DNA of 59,897 nucleotides, counting the filler. It is 4 parts of 4 records of this genome, joined end to end, with 100 filler letters (N's around TTAATTAATTAA, not from the genome) between each part and the next. Parts side by side here need not be neighbours in the genome. Positions count along the whole stretch, not along the records: positions 1 to 18,419 come from SRR31156797_2819; 3 more parts are not named here. One strand, written 5' to 3'. Positions within the stretch are counted from its first letter, which is position 1; each line of letters opens with the position of its first letter. Of this stretch, positions 4,535 through 11,984 are shown piece after piece. A program made the position numbers and the translations under genes. A model generated the notes under the pieces. That model saw only the letters and a program-made list of their open reading frames with translations. It made no database searches and was not told where the DNA came from.

Positions 4535-5107
4535 TTATCCTTGTATATTCAGAAAGTTCTGGAGTAATTTTGGGCCGTCCGGTGTGAGGATGGATTCCGG
4601 GTGGAACTGGACGCCATGCCATGGCCGGTCCTTGTACTGGATACCCATGATTTCGCCCTGTCGGGTTCGGGCCGTGACATCGAGTGTGTCTGCCGCTTTC
4701 TCAGCCGGAACAATGAGCGAGTGGTATCTGCACACCTCGAAGGGTGAGTCGAGACCGGCGAAAACGCCTTGCCCATCGTGGATTACCTGCGAGGTCTTGC
4801 CGTGCATGATCCGTTCGGCGCGTTCCACAGGTGCTCCGGCAAAGTGCCCAAGGGTCTGATGCCCCAGACAGACGCCGAATACCGGAATCGTTTTGGGCAG
4901 TCGGCTGAGGAATTCCAGACAAAAACCGGCATTTTCCGGGTTGCTTGGTCCGGGTGAGAGACAAACTCGTTCAAGCGTGCCGCTTTGCGCCAGATCCAGT
5001 ACTGTTTCGCGGTCGTTGCGGATGACCACTGGGTTGGCTCCAAGTTGTTGGAAGGCTTGCACCAGATTGAAGGTGAAGGAATCGAAATTATCTATCAGCA
5101 AAAACAT
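4535..5107 (-). CDS. trpG: Anthranilate synthase component II (glutamine amidotransferase)
   Basis: LLIDNFDSFT, SPGP, GVCLGHQ, QFHPES; start MFLLID. Confidence 0.96.
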   Translation of the reverse strand: MFLLIDNFDSFTFNLVQAFQQLGANPVVIRNDRETVLDLAQSGTLERVCLSPGPSNPENAGFCLEFLSRLPKTIPVFGVCLGHQTLGHFAGAPVERAERIMHGKTSQVIHDGQGVFAGLDSPFEVCRYHSLIVPAEKAADTLDVTARTRQGEIMGIQYKDRPWHGVQFHPESILTPDGPKLLQNFLNIQG

Positions 5108-6545
5108 CGGTTCCCCCCTTGCCTGTGATGACTTCCAGAATAACACGTGCCTTGTTGTGACATTCGTTCCACTCGGATTCAGCGTTCGAATCGTACACGA
5201 TGCCAGCTCCGGCCTGCCAGTGGCAGATGCCGTTTCGAATCCACATGGACCGGATGGTAATGCCCGTGTCGAGGGAGATAACGCCGTCGTCCAGCCCCAT
5301 CCAGCCTATGCAGCCGCCATAAGGGCCGCGTTCCTGTGGTTCCAGATCGGCGATAATTTCCATGGCCCGAATTTTCGGTGCGCCGGATAATGTTCCCGCC
5401 GGGAAGGTGGATTGAAGAACATCCACGCCATCCAGTCCGTCTTTTAACTTACCTTCCACATAGGATGTGAGGTGCATGACATGGGAGAAGCGTTCAACGT
5501 TCATGAATTTTTCGACGGTGACTGTGCCGGGTTTGGAAATACGACCCAGATCGTTTCGACCGAGGTCGACCAGCATGACATGCTCGGCCCGTTCTTTGGG
5601 GTCGGCCAACAGTTCTTTTTCCAGACGCATATCTTCTTTCTCGGTTTCGCCTCTCCAGCGAGTTCCGGCGATGGGACGTACTTCCAGATGTCCGGCCGAG
5701 CTTCTGACCATCATTTCCGGGGATGATCCGAGCAGGGTGATGCCACAGGTTTTGCCCATGGACGAGCAGTCCGGGAATTTCATGTAGAACATGAATGGTG
5801 AAGGATTGGCCTGTCTGAGGCGGCGATAAATCTTGAAAGGTTCATCTGGCAAAGGCACGGTGAATCGGGTGGACAACACCACTTGAATGCATTCGCCTTC
5901 GGCAATGAGTTCCTTGCACCGCTCTACGCCGCGCATGTATTCTTCCTTGCCGGGATGGACCGTGGGTGTCCCGACCTCGGGAGCAGTCAGGTCCGCGCCC
6001 CATTGAATGGGGGCAGGCATGGGGGTCGCGCCTTTATCAAGGCTGAGATAGCAGCAGGAGTGGCGCAGGTGATCGAAAAGGACCATTTGTCCGGGCAGGA
6101 CTAAACACGCCTCGGCATCGGCTGGTTTGCAGCATTCGGTCAGCTTGCGTTCGAACATGCCAGCTACGCCATATCCGAAGTAGCCGTACAGACCGCGAGT
6201 CAGGCCGGGGAGGCCGTCACGCGCGTTGCCACCGGTTGTTTCCTGCGTGATCGAGAGTCGCTTCACGGCCTTTTTGATGCCAGTGAGATACTCCATACCT
6301 TCCAACTCTTTGAGCTGGGCAAGCCTGTCGTCTGAAACTTCTACCATCAGCTTGCCATCCACGGGGTGGAGCATGAGTCGATAGTCCCAGGCGATCAAAC
6401 TGTATCGACCAAGGCGACCATCCACCTCTGCCGATTCCAGCAAAATGCCGGGTTGGTCTCCCACCAGTCCCATATAGAGGGATATGGTGGTCTGGACGTC
6501 AGCCGGGAGCCACTTCCCGTGCTGCGTCAGTGAAATCTTTTCCAT
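5088..6545 (-). CDS. trpE: Anthranilate synthase component I
   Basis: LLES, NPSPFM, GSSPE, PIAGT, KERAEHVMLVDLGRND, GAPKIRA. Confidence 0.96.
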   Translation of the reverse strand: MEKISLTQHGKWLPADVQTTISLYMGLVGDQPGILLESAEVDGRLGRYSLIAWDYRLMLHPVDGKLMVEVSDDRLAQLKELEGMEYLTGIKKAVKRLSITQETTGGNARDGLPGLTRGLYGYFGYGVAGMFERKLTECCKPADAEACLVLPGQMVLFDHLRHSCCYLSLDKGATPMPAPIQWGADLTAPEVGTPTVHPGKEEYMRGVERCKELIAEGECIQVVLSTRFTVPLPDEPFKIYRRLRQANPSPFMFYMKFPDCSSMGKTCGITLLGSSPEMMVRSSAGHLEVRPIAGTRWRGETEKEDMRLEKELLADPKERAEHVMLVDLGRNDLGRISKPGTVTVEKFMNVERFSHVMHLTSYVEGKLKDGLDGVDVLQSTFPAGTLSGAPKIRAMEIIADLEPQERGPYGGCIGWMGLDDGVISLDTGITIRSMWIRNGICHWQAGAGIVYDSNAESEWNECHNKARVILEVITGKGGTDVFADR

Positions 6546-6663
6546 TATTTTTCCTTGTAGGTTCAGTCTCGTTAGTTGAGCGGGCGAGGTATAACCTCCC
6601 ACCCTTTTACCTTTTTTCGGTTTTCATATGACTTTCACGTCCCTTTCATTGTGTGCTCCTTAT

Positions 6664-6698
6664 AAAAAAGGCCGTACCCTTTCTGGGGGTGCGGCCTT
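6664..6698 (-). terminator. Intrinsic terminator of putative internal trp attenuator
   Basis: Minus strand aaggccgcaccc-ccagaaa-gggtacggcctttttt (one C.A mismatch) inside the operon between tyrA and trpE. Confidence 0.85.
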
Positions 6699-6766
6699 GG
6701 TTCACGTTCGATTCCAAGTAACGGCATGAGCCGCACCATTTATGAAGTTTCGTTACGCCACCACCA
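6688..6766 (-). promoter_or_regulatory. Putative Trp-sensing antiterminator plus TGG-TGG-TGG stall site in the tyrA 3' end
   Basis: GGTGCGGCT (6737-6729) complementary to GGCCGCACC (6696-6688, terminator 5' arm); three Trp codons at 6758-6766. Confidence 0.75.
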
Positions 6767-7510
6767 CTGTGCCCGATCTGCGAGCAGATCGAGATCACCG
6801 CCTGCGGCCAGGCTGAGGTAGGACATGAATTTGCGGTTGACTTCCTGAAGAAATGGATTCGATTCAGAGATTATCTCGAAGAGTTCCGTATCCTGTGTGA
6901 GCATTTTTCGGGCAGAGTCCAATCTGCGTTTGAACGAGGGGGTGATGAAGTTATCAATACCTTCCACATCTCTGGCTGCAGCTAAAAAAGCCACGGTGGA
7001 CGTGAAATTCAATCCCTGAACAAAGGCCATGGATCGGTCGTGATCTTCAGCTGTTGTCGAGAAACAGTCGTAGCCACATGCCTGCATAAGTCGGGTGACT
7101 TTATTTGCGGCATCTGTATCGGTCTCGCGTCCCGGTGCGACAGCAACCTTGGGTGTAAAATCTTCCGGGATAACTGGGCCGAAAAGCGGATGCGTACCGA
7201 CCACTGGACCGTCATAGCGTTCTATCATGGCTTTCATGGGGAGCATTTTGACTGAACCAACATCGCACAGGATTGTTGAGCCATTCAGGTACGGCACCAC
7301 ATGGTCCAAAACGGATTTCATAGCCGTTACCGGCACACTGAGCAGCAACATGTCGCAGTCTGTGAGAGCCTCGCGGAGTGTCTTCTCGGTGTATGGAAGG
7401 TCCAAAGCAATGACGGTGCGCCCGAGATCGGCAAAGGCTTTGGAAAAAAGCCCGCCCATCTGACCACTTGCGCCCGCGATGGCGATTGTATGTATATCTG
7501 CCTCAGTCAT
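6740..7510 (-). CDS. tyrA: Prephenate/arogenate dehydrogenase with C-terminal WWW
   Basis: GASGQMG Rossmann motif, DVGSVK, GTHPLFGP, EDHDRSMAFVQG; ends QWWWRNETS. Confidence 0.92.
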   Translation of the reverse strand: MTEADIHTIAIAGASGQMGGLFSKAFADLGRTVIALDLPYTEKTLREALTDCDMLLLSVPVTAMKSVLDHVVPYLNGSTILCDVGSVKMLPMKAMIERYDGPVVGTHPLFGPVIPEDFTPKVAVAPGRETDTDAANKVTRLMQACGYDCFSTTAEDHDRSMAFVQGLNFTSTVAFLAAARDVEGIDNFITPSFKRRLDSARKMLTQDTELFEIISESNPFLQEVNRKFMSYLSLAAGGDLDLLADRAQWWWRNETS

Positions 7511-7514
7511 TGCC

Positions 7515-8855
7515 TTATCCGATGATTTTCTTCCATTCGTTCCAGAAGCCGGGGAATGATTTGTTGACGCAGGTTGGATTGTCGAGAGTGACGTCGATAC
7601 CCGCCAATTGGAACAGGGACATGGACATGGCCATGCGATGGTCGCCGTATGTCGTGAAATCTACTGCATGACCGTTGGGCAACCTGCCGGGACGGATGAT
7701 GAGTGAGTCTTCAACAATTTCTGTTTCAGCCTGAGTGCGGGATACTTCCACAGCGCAGGCTTCCAGTCTGTCGGTTTCCTTGATGCGCAGATGAGCCACA
7801 TTGGTGATGGTGGTCGGCGAGGTCGCGAATGCTGCGGCAGCGGAAACTGTCGGGACCAGATCCGGGCAGCGGCCCATATCCACGGTTATGCCATGCAAGG
7901 TGCTCGGTTCAATGAGGATGCCGTCAAAGGTGACCTTGATGGATGCCCCCATTTGGCTGAGAATGTCCATGATGGCCCGGTCGCCCTGAAGCGAATCCGC
8001 TGCCAGTCCCTTGATGAGTACGGGGCGTCTGCCCACAGCTCCGGCGGCCAGAAAGTAACTGGCGTTGGACCAGTCGCCTTCAACTCGATAATGTGTCGGA
8101 TCATAGCCGGTCGGTTTGACAATAAACCGAATTTTACCGGGGCTGACTGCCTTGATGGAGCGCCACGGCACTGTTTCCCATTTTTTGCCTTTTTTGATTT
8201 CGACTTCAAATCCTGCCTTGAAATCTTCCATGATGCGCAAGGTCAGAGCTACATACGGCCATGAAATAGCTTTTTTCCCTGTGACCGTGATTGTGGTTTC
8301 ATGGTCAGTCAAAGGCGCACCTAGGAGCAGACCGGAGAGGTATTGGCTGCTTTCTTCCAGGGTGATTTCCACCTTTTTTGAGGTGTAGCCTTTGCTGGTC
8401 ATGATAAAGGGGAGGAATCCCTCTTTTTCAGCAAATTCGAATGTGGAGCCGAGTTTTTGCAAGGCTGTCACCAGTTCGGCCATGGGCCGTTCATGCATAC
8501 GCTGGGCGCCGTGTACTTTGAAGGAACCGTACCCGGCAGCGGCCACGGCGGTCATCAGACGGCAGGTAGTCCCGGATTCGTGCATGAATAATTCATGGGG
8601 TTCTTCATCCTTGTGCTTACCGTCTGCATTGCCGCCCTTGGGGCCGGACTCCATGCCTGTGACGATGAGTTTTCCGTCTTTTTCATCGATTTTTGCTCCG
8701 CAGGCGGTCAGACAACCGCGTGTGCGGGTGATGTCGTCTGAATCGAGGATAGATGATACTTCGGAGACGCCGTTGGCCAATGCTGCCGCGATGAGTGTGC
8801 GGTGGGAAAGCGACTTGCTGGCCGGTGCATTGATGATAATCGGTTCCTTGGTCAT
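7515..8855 (-). CDS. aroA: EPSP synthase
   Basis: SKSLSHR, ESGTTCR, SSQYLS, KETDRL, DHRMAMS, KSFP; start MTKEP overlaps pheA stop. Confidence 0.96.
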   Translation of the reverse strand: MTKEPIIINAPASKSLSHRTLIAAALANGVSEVSSILDSDDITRTRGCLTACGAKIDEKDGKLIVTGMESGPKGGNADGKHKDEEPHELFMHESGTTCRLMTAVAAAGYGSFKVHGAQRMHERPMAELVTALQKLGSTFEFAEKEGFLPFIMTSKGYTSKKVEITLEESSQYLSGLLLGAPLTDHETTITVTGKKAISWPYVALTLRIMEDFKAGFEVEIKKGKKWETVPWRSIKAVSPGKIRFIVKPTGYDPTHYRVEGDWSNASYFLAAGAVGRRPVLIKGLAADSLQGDRAIMDILSQMGASIKVTFDGILIEPSTLHGITVDMGRCPDLVPTVSAAAAFATSPTTITNVAHLRIKETDRLEACAVEVSRTQAETEIVEDSLIIRPGRLPNGHAVDFTTYGDHRMAMSMSLFQLAGIDVTLDNPTCVNKSFPGFWNEWKKIIG

Positions 8856-9952
8856 GATCGATTCTCCTGAGTGGGGTAGGTGCCGAGGACTCGCAGCGTA
8901 TGGCACTGCTGACGAATGTCCTCAAGGACGTCTTGGTAACGGTCGCCGCCCAAATCACATTCGAGGTCGGTGAAGAAAACATATTTCCATTTTTCACCTC
9001 GGAACGGACGGGATTCAAGCTTGGTCATATTGATGCCTTGATGCCCCAGAGTGGTCAACACGCGGGCCAGTGCACCTGGTTTGTCGGGCAAAGTGAAAAG
9101 TATGGTTGTCTTGTCGCGTCGGTCTTCCTGTGAAGGAGCTGCGCCGATGATGAGGAATCGTGTCCAGTTGTCGGGCAAGTCCTCGATGGATTGGGACAGC
9201 ACGTTCATGGCGTGCATGTCAGCCAGCTTGATGTGACCGATAACGGCAGCAGCTTTTTTGCCTGCGACTACTTCGGCAGCCTCAGCTGTTGATTCCATGG
9301 GGATGGTCGGTACATCCGGCAGATGGGTGCGCAACCAATCACGGCATTGGCCCAATGGTTGAGGGTGGGAGTATATGACCTCCACATCCTTAAGGGATTC
9401 GGCTTTGGACATGATCGAGTGGCTGATGCGACTGAAAACCTCGGCCTGAATGTAGACCTTGTATTTCATGAACAAGTCCACGACCTGCCCCACGGTGCCT
9501 TCAATCGTGTTTTCCATTGGTATGACGCCGAGTTCGGCCCCTTCCTCGGCCACGGCCCGGAATATTTCTTCAAAATTCCCCTTGGGAGTCAGGGATGCGG
9601 CACTGCCCATGTGTTCGATGGCAGCAAAATAGGAGAAGGTCCCTTCAGGGCCAAGATAGACCACACGCTCGGGGCGTTGCAGATGGCGCGAGGAGCTCAT
9701 GATCTCGCGGTAGATGGTGCGCAGGTGTTTGTCCGGCAACGGGCCGGGACTGGAACCCGCGATCTTGTTCATGACTTCCTGCTCGCGGAAGGGTTTGTAG
9801 ATGGCTTCGCCCTTGGACGCTTTGTATCGGCCTACACCGAGGCTCAGATTTGCCCGTTGATTGAGCAGGTCCACGATTCGACGATCCACGGAGTCGATGG
9901 ACTCGCGCAGTTCGCCGAGATCGGGAATATCGTTGTGGTCTTTATCTGCCAT
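8852..9952 (-). CDS. pheA: Chorismate mutase / prephenate dehydratase (P-protein)
   Basis: N-terminal AroQ (LRESID..LLNQRA), YLGPEGTFS, TRF, ACT domain ESRP. Confidence 0.96.
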   Translation of the reverse strand: MADKDHNDIPDLGELRESIDSVDRRIVDLLNQRANLSLGVGRYKASKGEAIYKPFREQEVMNKIAGSSPGPLPDKHLRTIYREIMSSSRHLQRPERVVYLGPEGTFSYFAAIEHMGSAASLTPKGNFEEIFRAVAEEGAELGVIPMENTIEGTVGQVVDLFMKYKVYIQAEVFSRISHSIMSKAESLKDVEVIYSHPQPLGQCRDWLRTHLPDVPTIPMESTAEAAEVVAGKKAAAVIGHIKLADMHAMNVLSQSIEDLPDNWTRFLIIGAAPSQEDRRDKTTILFTLPDKPGALARVLTTLGHQGINMTKLESRPFRGEKWKYVFFTDLECDLGGDRYQDVLEDIRQQCHTLRVLGTYPTQENRS

Positions 9953-9967
9953 GACGTTCTCCGAAGC

Positions 9968-10951
9968 CTAAGCTTCCTTGATTTCTTCTTTGATGCGCAT
10001 GCCGAAGTGTCGACCAGCTTCATCGGTTTTGACCATGATTTTATCACCAACCTTGAGGGTCACGACGGACACTGGTTCACCTTTGTCCGAGACAACGCGG
10101 ATGGTTTCGGCGTTTTGCAGGAAAATTTGACCTTCGGTGGTGGCTTCTTTGGTTTTGATTGCGGCCTTAATGAGCAACATGGGCCGAACTTCCACTTTGA
10201 CACGGCCTACGGTGGCTATACTGGTGCCGCCATCCGCTCCTACGATGAGCACATCGTCGCCAGCACCCAATTCATCCAGATACGTGGTTTTGTCACCGGG
10301 CATCTGGGCATAGGCGTGGACCGCTCCTGCATTGATACGGAAGGGACGTGCAGCCACATACGGATTGGATTCGGTCTCGGCATGGACAAGGAAGGAGAAG
10401 GCTGAGGAATTGCCGATGAGCATGCCTTGGCCTTTTTTCAGGACGGAAATGGTGTCGACACAGACGCGATGCCCTAATCCAGTGGATTCGATTTCGGTGA
10501 CTTCAGCGATTTGGAGGTCCATGGTTCCCTGCGAGAGTTTGAGTTCCGAGACGATCTGCTTAAGGTCGGCTGCGCCTTCGGGCAATACGACCACGGTGTC
10601 ACAGCCGCGCTCCAGAATTCCTGCGGCCAGCACAGCCCGATCCAGTGATTCACATTCCAGCGCCAGCGTGTCCACTTGCGCAAGAATATTTTCTACCGGA
10701 ATAATCTCCCATCCCTTTTTAAGTACGACATCCTTGCCGTTTCGAATGCCCTTGATAGCGACGTCCTCGTCGGCCTTTTTAGTCAATTCGACAACGGGCA
10801 TATCGTCGGGAGTAATGACTGTGACACGACCAAGAGATTCGACTGCTTTGACCTGGGATTTCTCGACCATTACAGCGTCTACACCTGACTCCAGAGCCAG
10901 AGTGACGAGGTGTTTGTCAAAGGGGACGGACTTGAAGATGACTTTTTTCAT
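9968..10951 (-). CDS. aroB': 3-dehydroquinate synthase II (archaeal-type AroB')
   Basis: WEIIPVEN, RVCVDT, RPFRINAGAVHAY, LQNAETIR, GRHFG. Confidence 0.93.
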   Translation of the reverse strand: MKKVIFKSVPFDKHLVTLALESGVDAVMVEKSQVKAVESLGRVTVITPDDMPVVELTKKADEDVAIKGIRNGKDVVLKKGWEIIPVENILAQVDTLALECESLDRAVLAAGILERGCDTVVVLPEGAADLKQIVSELKLSQGTMDLQIAEVTEIESTGLGHRVCVDTISVLKKGQGMLIGNSSAFSFLVHAETESNPYVAARPFRINAGAVHAYAQMPGDKTTYLDELGAGDDVLIVGADGGTSIATVGRVKVEVRPMLLIKAAIKTKEATTEGQIFLQNAETIRVVSDKGEPVSVVTLKVGDKIMVKTDEAGRHFGMRIKEEIKEA

Positions 10952-10963
10952 TGTACGGTACCG

Positions 10964-11761
10964 TTATCCATTAAGGTGATTGAGGGCGGTTCCTACCGAT
11001 TCATCATCGTGGACCACCATGTTGAGCGCTTCCACCAGACGGGTCGGATTCTTATGCTGGAATACGTTGCGGCCTACGGACAATCCTGCGCCACCGGCTT
11101 CCAGTGAATCATGCACCATTTGAAGAAATGCCTCTGTGCTGTCAAGTTTGGGACCACCAGCTATGACAACAGGAATACAACAGGAATCGCACACATGGGC
11201 AAAGGTGTCTATGTTGCCAGTGTACGGGACTTTCACAACGTCCGCACCGAGCTCTGTGCCAACACGGGCGCAATGGGCTACGACATCGGCGTCGTATTCG
11301 TCAGAAATTTTGGGACCACGAGCGTACACCATGGCCAGTAATGGGATGCCCCAGTTGGCAGCATCGGAAGAAATCTTGCCGAAGTCGTTGAGCATGGCAG
11401 CCTCGGTTTCGTCACCGAGGTTACAATGGATGGAAACGGCGTCTGCGCCGAGACGGACGGCATCTTCCACACTTGCGACCAGTGTTTTGGCATTGGGGAA
11501 GGGAGACAAGGAAGTGGAAGCTGACAGATGGACGATCAGCCCGATGTCCTTGCCCTGGGCACGGTGTCCACAACGAACCAGTCCTTTGTGCTCGATGACT
11601 GCGTTGGCACCGCCGTCAACAACTTTGCCGACGGCTTCGCGCATATCGACCAGCCCATCGATAGGGCCGACGGTTACGCCGTGGTCCATGGGAACTACGA
11701 TAGTTCGGCCGGTATTTCGATTGAAAATCCTTTCCAGCCTGATGGCTTTACCTATGTGCAT
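10964..11761 (-). CDS. aroA': 2-amino-3,7-dideoxy-D-threo-hept-6-ulosonate synthase (DhnA-type aldolase, AroA')
   Basis: [28 protein letters not shown]; adjacent to aroB'. Confidence 0.9.
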
Positions 11762-11816
11762 TTCATTCTCCTTGAGGTTGTCCCTTCACTGAGTGAGCAT
11801 CCAACCGACGAGCCAC

Positions 11817-11854
11817 AAAAAACAAGGGCCGCCGGCTTTCGCCCGCGGCCCTTG
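11817..11854 (-). terminator. Attenuator terminator upstream of aroA'
   Basis: Minus strand caagggccgcgggc-gaaa-gccggcggcccttg followed by tttttt. Confidence 0.88.
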
Positions 11855-11888
11855 AAGAGGTTTTGTTCAGTTTGTATCCACCAGTTGG

Positions 11889-11984
11889 CTACAATGCACC
11901 TCTCCCAAGACCACGAGCGTGGCTATACCAATACCAGAAGGTAAAGTTGGAAAAGGATGCGTTGAAGACAGTTGTGGAGTTCAT
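11889..11984 (-). CDS. Aromatic amino acid attenuation leader peptide, 31 aa (MNSTTVFNASFSNFTFWYWYSHARGLGRGAL)
   Basis: Translated by hand; 4 Phe, 2 Trp, 2 Tyr with FTFWYWY cluster; lies between promoter and terminator of the aro/trp operon; absent from the ORF track. Confidence 0.85.
   Translation of the reverse strand: MNSTTVFNASFSNFTFWYWYSHARGLGRGAL

What the first reader, a model, noticed from the sequence alone, without database searches (positions are those of the whole stretch)
6664..6766. Internal Trp attenuator that uses the C-terminus of TyrA as its leader peptide
Seen: tyrA ends QWWWRNETS* (TGG x3 at 6766-6758), and these are the protein's only Trp residues. Two nt after its stop is GGTGCGGCT, a 9-bp complement of the 5' arm of a U-tailed terminator (6698-6664) that precedes trpE. 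The terminator stem has a C.A mismatch at a position where the antiterminator pairs perfectly. Established: trpL-type attenuation uses tandem Trp codons in a dedicated short leader. Inference: a ribosome stalled at WWW leaves the antiterminator free and trpEGDCFBA is transcribed, while a ribosome at the stop codon masks it and transcription ends. A 256-aa enzyme gene would thus double as the sensor.
Basis: partly seen in the sequence, partly recalled or inferred. Interest (0 to 1): 0.82.

Follow-up and report, generated by a model that had tools for sequence, protein, structure and literature searches.

The report
Trp attenuator built into tyrA end
The last codons of the tyrosine-pathway enzyme gene tyrA, three tryptophan codons in a row, appear to act as the sensor of a ribosome-stalling switch that decides whether transcription continues into the tryptophan genes, and the arrangement is conserved across an order of sulfate-reducing bacteria.

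Summary
tyrA (6740-7510, minus strand) ends QWWWRNETS*, and these are its only Trp residues. A 9-nt segment two bases past the stop pairs with the 5' arm of a U-tailed hairpin upstream of trpE. Comparison with 79 related loci supports the attenuator reading and sharpens it. A compact terminator is present in 59 of 71 loci with WWW and in 0 of 9 loci with only xWW. The antiterminator and terminator arm covary between lineages (swap test 0 of 20000). RNAalifold, given no structure, predicts the antiterminator helix. The antiterminator starts 16.7 +/- 3 nt after the last Trp codon, although the stop codon position ranges from -26 to +5 relative to it. In two genomes where trpE is not next to tyrA, trpE is preceded by free-standing short leader ORFs (…WWWR…RGGVRPV*) with the same layout and tails that resemble TyrA tails. 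Against a purely regulatory origin, the middle Trp is invariant across distant TyrA proteins, WWW survives in 12 loci without a compact terminator, and no expression data exist. Verdict: a real ribosome-mediated Trp attenuator (about 0.8) whose leader peptide is the C-terminus of a 256-aa enzyme. It is a new variant of a known kind, and I found no description of it in print.

The parts
6740..7510 (-). tyrA (prephenate/arogenate dehydrogenase, 256 aa). Its last 8 codons act as the leader peptide.
   Evidence: ORF. Pfam PDH_N E=2.7e-15. 99% identical protein named prephenate dehydrogenase of an uncultured Pseudodesulfovibrio.
6758..6766 (-). Three tandem Trp codons (W249-W251), the proposed stall site. 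W250 is invariant across the TyrA family; W249 and W251 are derived.
   Evidence: Alignment A4: W250 invariant, position 251 is W/Y/F, position 249 is variable.
6740..6757 (-). Five tail codons (RNETS) plus the TAA stop. They act as a spacer that places the antiterminator just outside a ribosome stalled on the Trp codons.
   Evidence: Tail length is 4-14 codons in relatives that have a terminator, while the Trp-to-antiterminator distance stays at 11-23 nt. Residues 253-256 have pLDDT below 50.
6729..6737 (-). Antiterminator 5' strand, GGTGCGGCT. It pairs with 6688-6696.
   Evidence: The helix is 98% paired with 2 compensatory pairs in 30 sequences and is predicted independently by RNAalifold.
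6699..6728 (-). Linker between the antiterminator and the terminator. It can form a small local hairpin with the 3' half of the antiterminator (GCGGC/GCCGU). Its role is not settled; a pause or transient hairpin is an inference.
   Evidence: MFE. A hairpin at this place is seen in the Pseudodesulfovibrio and Humidesulfovibrio rows but not in the short Maridesulfovibrio linkers.
6664..6698 (-). Intrinsic terminator: hairpin 6698-6668 with a C6691/A6675 mismatch, followed by a T run to 6664.
   Evidence: -17.5 kcal/mol. Terminator helix is 93.7% paired in 30 sequences.
5088..6545 (-). trpE, the first of the regulated trp genes. trpG, trpD, trpC and trpF follow on the same strand.
   Evidence: Pfam Chorismate_bind and Anth_synt_I_N. 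GATase, Glycos_transf_3, IGPS and PRAI for the next ORFs.
11815..11984 (-). Context: the first-tier attenuator upstream of aroA'. It is a 31-codon leader ORF with an F-T-F-W-Y-W-Y run, an antiterminator in its tail, and a terminator with a T run.
   Evidence: ORF 11889-11984, sequence, fold z = -3.5. An attenuator at this position in D. vulgaris is listed in Table 7 of PMC1173090 (passages read).

Best explanation
The element is a ribosome-mediated (trpL-type) transcription attenuator internal to an aromatic supraoperon (aroA'-aroB'-pheA-aroA-tyrA | trpEGDCF...). Its leader peptide is the C-terminus of the full-length enzyme TyrA. RNA polymerase coming from upstream transcribes the tyrA end, then a G-rich antiterminator strand, a linker, and a U-tailed hairpin. 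When charged tRNA-Trp is plentiful, the lead ribosome passes the three TGG codons and, within one to five further codons (or while sitting at the stop), covers the antiterminator strand. The terminator hairpin then forms and transcription stops before trpE, so the Phe/Tyr genes are expressed without the trp genes. When tRNA-Trp is scarce, the ribosome stalls on WWW. Its front edge stops just short of the antiterminator strand, which begins about 16 nt after the last TGG. That strand pairs with the terminator's 5' arm as soon as the arm emerges, the terminator cannot form, and polymerase reads on into trpEGDCF. Shown by sequence analysis: the elements, their conservation, covariation and spacing, and their homology to free-standing leaders. 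Inferred: ribosome stalling, ribosome-polymerase coupling at the end of a 771-nt gene, and the response to Trp.
For: (1) Anatomy is as described.
(2) Conservation of WWW: 120 of 120 listed TyrA homologs (57-99% identity) carry WWW near the C-terminus, and 114 of them have no other Trp.
(3) Linkage to a terminator: of 80 evaluable loci (79 of the 80 fetched, with L038 dropped because its contig ends before the stop, plus the window), 59 of 71 WWW loci have a compact hairpin plus T-tract between tyrA and trpE, against 0 of 9 xWW loci (Fisher p = 1e-6 on loci and 0.01 on 22 hand-delimited lineages).
(4) Antiterminator strength: it beats dinucleotide shuffles with median z = -3.2 over 59 loci (26 of 59 at 0/200).
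(5) Covariation: in 30 aligned sequences the antiterminator helix is 98% paired (38-51% when slid), with A-U<->G-C at 19/11 and C-G<->U-A at 18/12. RNAalifold, given no structure, returns this helix rather than the terminator. Across 16 lineage representatives with different helix sequences, summed own-pair energy is -372 against -293 +/- 12 for permuted partners, 0 of 20000 permutations as low.
(6) Spacing: the antiterminator core starts 16.7 +/- 3.0 nt (range 11-23) after the last Trp codon, but from -26 to +5 nt (sd 8.5) relative to the stop, with tails of 4-14 codons.
(7) Nascent-RNA folds: with the 3' arm not yet made and RNA free from 10 nt past the last TGG, the terminator 5' arm is held by the antiterminator in 59 of 59 loci. 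With a ribosome at the stop it is held in 1 of 59.
(8) Imperfect terminator: it is often imperfect exactly where the antiterminator is perfect. Pair 93:109 is unpaired in 12 of 30 sequences while pair 35:93 is paired in 30 of 30.
(9) No room for a promoter: in short-spacer lineages the T-tract is followed within about 15-25 nt by the trpE ribosome-binding site, and no promoter-like site was found in the window's spacer. trpE must therefore be reached by read-through.
(10) Free-standing homologs: in genomes whose tyrA is not followed by trpE, trpE is preceded by short leader ORFs. There is one in L081 (…YRWWWRVIDVRGGVRPV*) and two in tandem in L082 (…NWWWR…GRGCGLGA*, …NWWR…GRGCGPDA*). Each has its antiterminator 15-16 nt after the last TGG and a terminator about 70 nt after it, and the tails resemble TyrA tails such as …WWWRSHTERGGVRPS*.
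(11) Two-tier logic: a separate F/W/Y-rich leader attenuator upstream of aroA' gives one switch for all aromatic amino acids and one for Trp alone.
Against: (a) WWW is not maintained only by attenuation. W250 is invariant and position 251 is aromatic in TyrA proteins of 35-44% identity, and 10 of the first 60 of 150 distant representatives I printed also have WWW, with unknown gene context.
(b) 12 of 71 WWW loci lack a compact terminator: L024, L030, L031, L053, L054, L062, L078 (long imperfect hairpin only), L033 and L036 (hairpin kept, T-tract weak), L060, L064, and L077 (contig ends 127 nt after the stop).
(c) All 3 tyrA loci not followed by trpE keep WWW.
(d) On a TyrA tree the WWW state changes only 4 times, and the independent-pairs test has no power (median p = 1). 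The locus-level Fisher test is therefore inflated by shared ancestry.
(e) In full-length equilibrium folds the terminator remains in the MFE in 48 of 59 loci even with the ribosome placed on WWW. The switch must be kinetic.
(f) For some lineages the antiterminator is no better than many shuffles (L076 and L080 at 42-44 of 200; L026 and L027 at 22-24 of 200).
(g) No anti-antiterminator is evident, so an untranslated transcript would read through by default. Tight ribosome-polymerase coupling after 250 codons is assumed, not shown.
(h) Rfam Trp_leader scores 15.4 bits against a gathering score of 41.
(i) There is no expression evidence. Only an RNA-library contig from a relative bridges the site.
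Confidence: 0.8

Rival explanations
1. The hairpin is a constitutive, partial intra-operon terminator that fixes the ratio of aro/tyr transcripts to trp transcripts. WWW is purely a structural feature of TyrA's last helix, and the upstream complementarity has no sensing role.
For: W250 is invariant and position 251 is aromatic in distant TyrA. WWW persists in 12 loci without a compact terminator and in all 3 unlinked tyrA. The terminator stays in the equilibrium MFE in 48 of 59 loci. The tree-aware test has no power.
Against: The upstream strand covaries with the terminator arm across lineages and is the structure RNAalifold chooses. Its distance from the Trp codons is fixed while the stop codon moves. 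The first Trp is absent only where the terminator is absent (0 of 9). The same module occurs as a short Trp-codon leader ORF upstream of trpE.
Confidence: 0.08
2. The attenuator depends on translation but is not Trp-specific. As recalled for rph-pyrE in E. coli, it reports how closely the ribosome on the tyrA end follows RNA polymerase (general translation or nucleotide status), and WWW is incidental.
For: A ribosome at or near the stop covers the antiterminator in the window. Terminators placed downstream of a translated gene are known to be modulated by the ribosome (abstracts of PMC4231749, and PMC4824070, listing).
Against: The conserved distance is to the Trp codons, not to the stop. The regulated genes are the trp genes. 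The free-standing leaders keep WWW or WW at the same distance. A second attenuator in the same operon carries an F/W/Y run, which shows codon-specific design in this organism.
Confidence: 0.07
3. The terminator/antiterminator switch is set by a trans factor (a TRAP-like RNA-binding protein, uncharged tRNA as in T-boxes, or a small molecule) rather than by the ribosome.
For: None specific. The switch itself would be compatible with any effector that blocks the 5' strand.
Against: There is no T-box or riboswitch match even at E <= 10 in 6300-7100. Only 3 (G/U)AG triplets occur in the 245 nt examined, against the 11 repeats TRAP binds (abstract of PMC3064811 in the listing). In many lineages the 5' strand lies inside the translated tail, where ribosomes must pass over it.
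Confidence: 0.03

Closest known systems
E. coli trpL-type leader-peptide attenuation of trp operons
   Same: Tandem Trp codons in a translated ORF, a U-tailed terminator upstream of trpE, and an antiterminator that shares the terminator's 5' arm. The gap between the Trp codons and the antiterminator fits a ribosome's leading edge (about 14 nt in trpL as I recall it; 16.7 +/- 3 nt here).
   Different: The ORF is a 256-codon enzyme gene with no promoter or start codon dedicated to a leader. There are three segments rather than four: no anti-antiterminator is evident, so the untranslated default should be read-through rather than termination. The element sits inside a supraoperon, not at its 5' end. 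The Rfam Trp_leader model does not reach threshold.
WWW motif in Chlamydia trachomatis YtgCR (PMC7755916, abstract and outline read)
   Same: A rare triple-Trp motif inside a long protein-coding ORF is used as a Trp sensor through impaired translation, with a transcriptional consequence downstream and an effect on trp gene expression.
   Different: In Chlamydia, stalling promotes termination within ytgCR, lowers the level of a repressor, and so acts in trans on the trpBA promoter. Here stalling is predicted to prevent termination in cis through an RNA antiterminator directly upstream of trpE.
rph-pyrE intercistronic attenuator of E. coli (recalled; no paper retrieved)
   Same: A full-length upstream enzyme gene plays the part of the leader. 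Ribosomes finishing it control an intrinsic terminator in the intercistronic gap before a biosynthetic gene.
   Different: As I recall it, the signal there is how closely ribosomes follow a UTP-limited polymerase. There are no cognate regulatory codons, and the ribosome blocks the terminator itself rather than an antiterminator.
mccA-mccB ribosome-controlled terminator (PMC4231749, abstract read)
   Same: An intergenic intrinsic terminator is suppressed by upstream RNA sequence, and termination is restored when a ribosome occupies the upstream ORF.
   Different: The upstream ORF has seven codons, no amino-acid sensing is involved, and the purpose is transcript ratio and stability.
B. subtilis aromatic supraoperon with a TRAP attenuator upstream of trpE (operon layout from passages of PMC1173090; TRAP from the abstract of PMC3064811)
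   Same: A trp operon is embedded in an aro operon, and an internal Trp-specific terminator/antiterminator switch lets upstream transcription be cut off before trpE.
   Different: The sensor there is a Trp-activated RNA-binding protein on 11 (G/U)AG repeats. Here there are no such repeats, and the sensor is the ribosome on codons of the preceding gene.

Membership tests
Ribosome-mediated leader-peptide transcription attenuators (trpL type) | Tandem codons for the regulating amino acid in a translated ORF upstream of the regulated genes | tested here: met
   Three in-frame TGG codons at 6766-6758. Conserved in 120 of 120 listed homologs.
Ribosome-mediated leader-peptide transcription attenuators (trpL type) | Intrinsic terminator (GC-rich hairpin plus U-tract) between the regulatory codons and the first regulated gene | tested here: met
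   Hairpin 6698-6668 plus a T run to 6664. Present in 59 of 71 WWW loci.
Ribosome-mediated leader-peptide transcription attenuators (trpL type) | Mutually exclusive antiterminator that uses the terminator's 5' arm, kept by selection | tested here: met
   Shuffle controls, compensatory pairs, swap test 0 of 20000, RNAalifold consensus.
Ribosome-mediated leader-peptide transcription attenuators (trpL type) | Spacing that leaves the antiterminator free when the ribosome stalls on the regulatory codons and covers it when the ribosome moves on | tested here: met
   Core starts 11-23 nt (mean 16.7) after the last TGG, regardless of stop position. Nascent-RNA folds give 59 of 59 against 1 of 59. The ribosome footprint size is recalled, not measured.
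Ribosome-mediated leader-peptide transcription attenuators (trpL type) | A short dedicated leader ORF with its own start codon | tested here: not met
   In the window the ORF is tyrA, 256 codons with a PDH_N domain. Relatives L081 and L082 do have short leader ORFs with the same module.
Ribosome-mediated leader-peptide transcription attenuators (trpL type) | Anti-antiterminator or pause hairpin (segment 1:2) that gives termination when the leader is not translated | tested here: inconclusive
   A small local hairpin involves the antiterminator's 3' half in the window. It is not seen in the short Maridesulfovibrio linkers. No segment overlapping the Trp codons pairs with the antiterminator.
Ribosome-mediated leader-peptide transcription attenuators (trpL type) | Read-through that rises when charged tRNA-Trp falls | not testable with these tools
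   Only contigs of public runs were available.
Rfam RF00513 Trp_leader | Covariance-model score at or above the gathering threshold | tested here: not met
   15.4 bits against 41, E = 3.9. It is still the top hit and spans 6662-6769.
T-box leaders and TRAP-controlled trp leaders | T-box covariance-model match, or 11 (G/U)AG repeats | tested here: not met
   No T-box hit at E <= 10. 3 (G/U)AG triplets in 245 nt.
WWW-motif Trp sensors in long ORFs (Chlamydia YtgCR type) | Triple-Trp motif inside a long functional ORF whose impaired translation changes downstream transcription | tested here: inconclusive
   The motif and the long ORF are met. The predicted direction of the effect is opposite (anti-termination in cis) and has not been measured.

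The most novel reading that the evidence does not exclude
The TyrA tail and the free-standing trp leader peptides of some Desulfovibrionaceae are one and the same genetic module. Either a leader-peptide gene was born when the 3' end of an enzyme gene travelled with the trp operon and gained its own start codon, or a leader was absorbed into tyrA. On this reading, an enzyme ORF has been under dual selection through most of the order, and the tail's amino acids (EGC, RGG, GGG motifs) are dictated by the antiterminator RNA rather than by the protein.
Probability: 0.55. Interest if true: 0.85.

Novelty: new variant of a known kind. Interest (0 to 1): 0.74.

Why it matters
Attenuation is usually described, and searched for, as a short dedicated leader ORF in a 5' untranslated region. 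[quoted passage not shown] This case shows that an ordinary enzyme gene can supply the sensor. It gives a two-tier control of an aromatic supraoperon: an F/W/Y leader at the front and a Trp-only switch in the middle. It also explains why a variable, probably disordered enzyme tail carries oddly conserved G-rich codons, and it offers a natural series (embedded leader, free leader, lost attenuator) for studying how leader peptides arise. The element is simple to test with reporters and 3'-end mapping in cultivable sulfate reducers. It also suggests re-scanning operon-internal gaps for runs of cognate codons at the ends of upstream genes.

Tried and rejected
- Whole-genome context: no genome is held for this window, so relatives came from the search for related loci. 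243 stretches encode a relative, the best 80 were kept, and I did not see the other 163.
- Rfam: only sub-threshold hits in 6300-7100, and nothing relevant in L081 or L082.
- Consensus terminator scan: it missed the element.
- Tree-aware test of WWW against the terminator: too few independent changes.
- Equilibrium folding as a test of the switch: the terminator dominates in 48 of 59 loci, so I used nascent-RNA folds instead. That test is partly circular, because the antiterminator segment was defined by duplex search.
- Public runs: one metatranscriptome (X1, small share) and three runs of unknown kind. All are kept as contigs, so they show no ends and no levels. X1 record 3 (605 nt, a relative with 37 differences) bridges 6470-7074, i.e. 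tyrA end, attenuator and trpE start. This does not prove a transcript. 33 of its 37 differences are listed, and only one of them (6704) lies in 6627-6769.
- ORF starting at the ATG directly after the tyrA stop: I rejected it as a leader. It has no Trp codon, and the ATG is present in only 5 of 12 Pseudodesulfovibrio-clade rows (reading).
- Solved structures: 2pv7 aligns only to residue 218. The AlphaFold monomer places WWW in the last helix with a low-confidence tail, which says little about function.
- Literature: searches, and passages of PMC1173090, PMC545781, PMC5343134 and PMC2965389, gave no description of this internal attenuator. The Vitreschak et al. 2004 paper on proteobacterial attenuators is not held. 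Supplements were closed and subscription journals are not searched, so prior mention cannot be excluded.

Full report
**1. What is in the window**

The minus strand carries an aromatic supraoperon:
- a DeoC-type aldolase (aroA', 10964-11761)
- dehydroquinate synthase II (aroB', 9968-10951)
- chorismate mutase/prephenate dehydratase (pheA, 8852-9952)
- EPSP synthase (7515-8906)
- prephenate dehydrogenase (tyrA, 6740-7510)
- after a 194-nt gap, trpE (5088-6545), then trpG, trpD, trpC and trpF

The nearest TyrA in the protein collection (99% identity) is from an uncultured Pseudodesulfovibrio. The same gene order is described for Desulfovibrio vulgaris in PMC1173090. The passages I read mention an attenuator only upstream of aroA'.

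**2.

tyrA ends CAG TGG TGG TGG CGT AAC GAA ACT TCA TAA. The three Trp at residues 249-251 are the protein's only Trp. Two bases after the stop lies GGTGCGGCT (6737-6729). It pairs with 6688-6696 of a 31-nt hairpin (6698-6668, -17.5 kcal/mol) that is followed by a T run to 6664.

The duplex energy is -19.1 kcal/mol against -11.4 +/- 2.5 for shuffles. None of 200 shuffles and none of 65 other tyrA windows do as well. The terminator's single mismatch (C6691/A6675) sits at a base that pairs perfectly in the antiterminator.

The window's only other TGGTGGTGG is antisense to an ORF. Rfam's best hit across exactly this span is Trp_leader, but at 15.4 bits it is far below threshold.

**3. Comparative evidence**

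*WWW is conserved.* All 120 listed protein homologs (57-99% identity) have WWW near the C-terminus, followed by a tail that varies in sequence and length. 114 of them have no other Trp.

*WWW goes with a terminator.* I fetched 80 loci from named genomes of Desulfovibrionales: Pseudodesulfovibrio, Humidesulfovibrio, Desulfocurvus, Maridesulfovibrio, Nitratidesulfovibrio, Salidesulfovibrio, and MAGs of Desulfohalobiaceae and Desulfomicrobiaceae. One locus (L038) ends before the stop and was dropped. With the window this leaves 80 evaluable loci. A strict search (single hairpin of -8 kcal/mol or better, at least 5 T in 8) finds a compact terminator between tyrA and trpE in 59 of 71 loci with WWW. 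It finds none in the 9 loci whose motif is xWW.

*The complementary strand is real and covaries.*
- In the 59 loci, a segment complementary to the terminator's 5' arm (and often its loop) lies at or just before the stop. The median z against shuffles is -3.2.
- The helix sequence differs between lineages and changes on both strands together. Examples are GGGGTGCGGC, GGGACGCGGC, GGGAGAA.TGC, GGGGAGGAGTGCG and GGGGGAGGAA, each with its own complement.
- In a 30-sequence alignment the antiterminator is 98% paired with two compensatory pairs, against 38-51% paired when the partner columns are slid.
- RNAalifold on the same alignment, given no structure, returns the antiterminator and not the terminator.
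- Among 16 lineage representatives, each upstream region fits its own terminator arm far better than those of other lineages (0 of 20000 permutations as good).

**4. The spacing refines the model**

The core of the antiterminator begins 16.7 +/- 3.0 nt (range 11-23) after the last Trp codon in all lineages. Its position relative to the stop codon ranges from -26 to +5, and tails run from 4 to 14 codons.

In long-tail lineages the antiterminator lies inside the coding sequence. This explains otherwise odd conserved tail motifs (…EGCVR*, …ERGGVRPS*, …KGGG.*): they encode the G-rich strand.

The constant is therefore the distance a stalled ribosome needs, not the stop codon. This matches what I recall of trpL, where the gap is about 14 nt.

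I also folded the nascent RNA with the 3' arm not yet made. With RNA free from 10 nt past the last TGG, the 5' arm is captured by the antiterminator in 59 of 59 loci. With a ribosome at the stop it is captured in 1 of 59. At equilibrium the terminator wins in 48 of 59 loci, so the switch has to be kinetic, as in classical attenuators.

**5. A natural control**

Three tyrA loci are not followed by trpE within the fetched DNA: L060, L064, and L077, whose contig ends 127 nt after the stop. I searched their genomes with TrpE and found it in two of the three.
- In L081, trpE is preceded by a promoter-like region and a 28-codon ORF ending …YRWWWRVIDVRGGVRPV*.
- In L082 there are two tandem units, …NWWWRIDSFGRGCGLGA* and …NWWRTVSLGRGCGPDA*.

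Each unit has an antiterminator 15-16 nt after the last TGG and a U-tailed hairpin about 70 nt after it. These are ordinary leader-peptide attenuators. Their tails resemble the TyrA tail of the neighbouring Nitratidesulfovibrio clade (…WWWRSHTERGGVRPS*). The embedded and free forms are thus one module in two settings, which is the strongest argument that the embedded form works as an attenuator.

**6. What is protein and what is regulation**

In TyrA proteins of 35-44% identity, W250 is invariant, position 251 is W, Y or F, and position 249 is variable. An AlphaFold model (pLDDT 84) puts WWW in the last helix and gives the four final residues pLDDT below 50.

The triple thus looks like an ancestral Trp extended on both sides. 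The informative residue is W249. It is missing in 9 loci from about five lineages, and none of those has a terminator (spacers of -4 to 105 nt).

Conversely, 12 WWW loci lack a compact terminator, so WWW can outlive the switch or have a protein role. On the tree the trait changes too rarely for a valid independent-contrasts test. A Fisher test on 22 hand-delimited lineages gives p = 0.01 and should be read as rough.

**7. Mechanism and logic**

Transcription from upstream of aroA' first meets a classical attenuator. Its 31-codon leader holds F-T-F-W-Y-W-Y, and its tail pairs with the next terminator's 5' arm. This switch could respond to all three aromatic amino acids.

Polymerases that pass it express the common-pathway, Phe and Tyr genes. 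At the end of tyrA they meet the second switch, which uses only Trp codons. The trp genes can therefore be shut off alone.

In lineages with about 90-nt gaps, the T-tract is followed almost at once by the trpE ribosome-binding site. An unconditional terminator there would silence trpE.

**8. Comparison with known systems, and novelty**

The element works like trpL attenuation but fails one defining feature, a short dedicated leader ORF, and it lacks an evident anti-antiterminator. It shares the 'WWW in a long ORF' idea with Chlamydia YtgCR (PMC7755916, abstract), but there stalling causes termination and acts through a repressor. It shares the 'upstream enzyme gene as leader' idea with rph-pyrE (recalled) and mccA-mccB (PMC4231749, abstract), which sense no amino acid.

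None of my eight literature searches, nor the passages I read, describes this internal attenuator. The library omits most subscription journals, and supplements were closed. I rate it a new variant of a known kind.

**9. Limits**

Everything here is sequence-based. The RNA-library contig that bridges the site is not proof of read-through. I saw 80 of 243 related loci, and the gene context of the distant TyrA proteins with WWW is unknown.

Noticed in passing
window 6572-6649 (minus strand), between the terminator and trpE: A small ORF with a good ribosome-binding site reads M-K-G-T-TGA and continues in the same frame as K-S-Y-E-N-R-K-K-V-K-G-W-E-V-I-P-R-P-L-N-TAA. The 'M x x T TGA K' opening is found in 10 of 12 Pseudodesulfovibrio-clade rows. 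The ENRKK.KGW.VIPRP.. part is found in 8, with differences mostly at third codon positions (by eye), as expected for translated sequence. I could not decide between a four-codon mini-ORF, stop-codon read-through or recoding, and a second Trp-related control of trpE.
   Followed up: partly
window 11815-11984 (minus strand), upstream of aroA': A classical leader-peptide attenuator sits at the head of the supraoperon. Its 31-codon ORF has the run F-T-F-W-Y-W-Y, its tail codons pair with the 5' arm of a following U-tailed hairpin (fold z = -3.5), and a TTGACA-type promoter lies upstream. Its G-rich tail (…GLGRGAL*) resembles the tails of the trp leaders in L082.
   Followed up: partly
L082 (reverse complement about 820-1480), upstream of trpE: There are two tandem leader-attenuator units with nearly identical antiterminators and terminators. 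The first has WWW and the second only WW. They look like a recent duplication that would give two-step attenuation.
   Followed up: partly
L013-L080, antiterminator strands (table): In many lineages the antiterminator 5' strand is Shine-Dalgarno-like (GGAGG, GGGAGG) and the terminator arm is correspondingly CCUCC-like. I did not examine whether pairing with 16S rRNA in the passing ribosome plays a part.
   Followed up: no
L060 and L064, downstream of tyrA: In these loci tyrA is followed after about 240-290 nt by an ORF beginning MNYHLFGESHGPAIG. I take this to be chorismate synthase from memory; it was not tested. The tyrA tail keeps WWW but no terminator follows.
   Followed up: no
L061, L067-L072 (Nitratidesulfovibrio), downstream of the terminator: TrpE appears to carry an N-terminal extension of roughly 70-80 residues rich in Pro, Ala and Glu repeats (MEMPEMPAQAE…) before the conserved start of the enzyme.
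   Followed up: no
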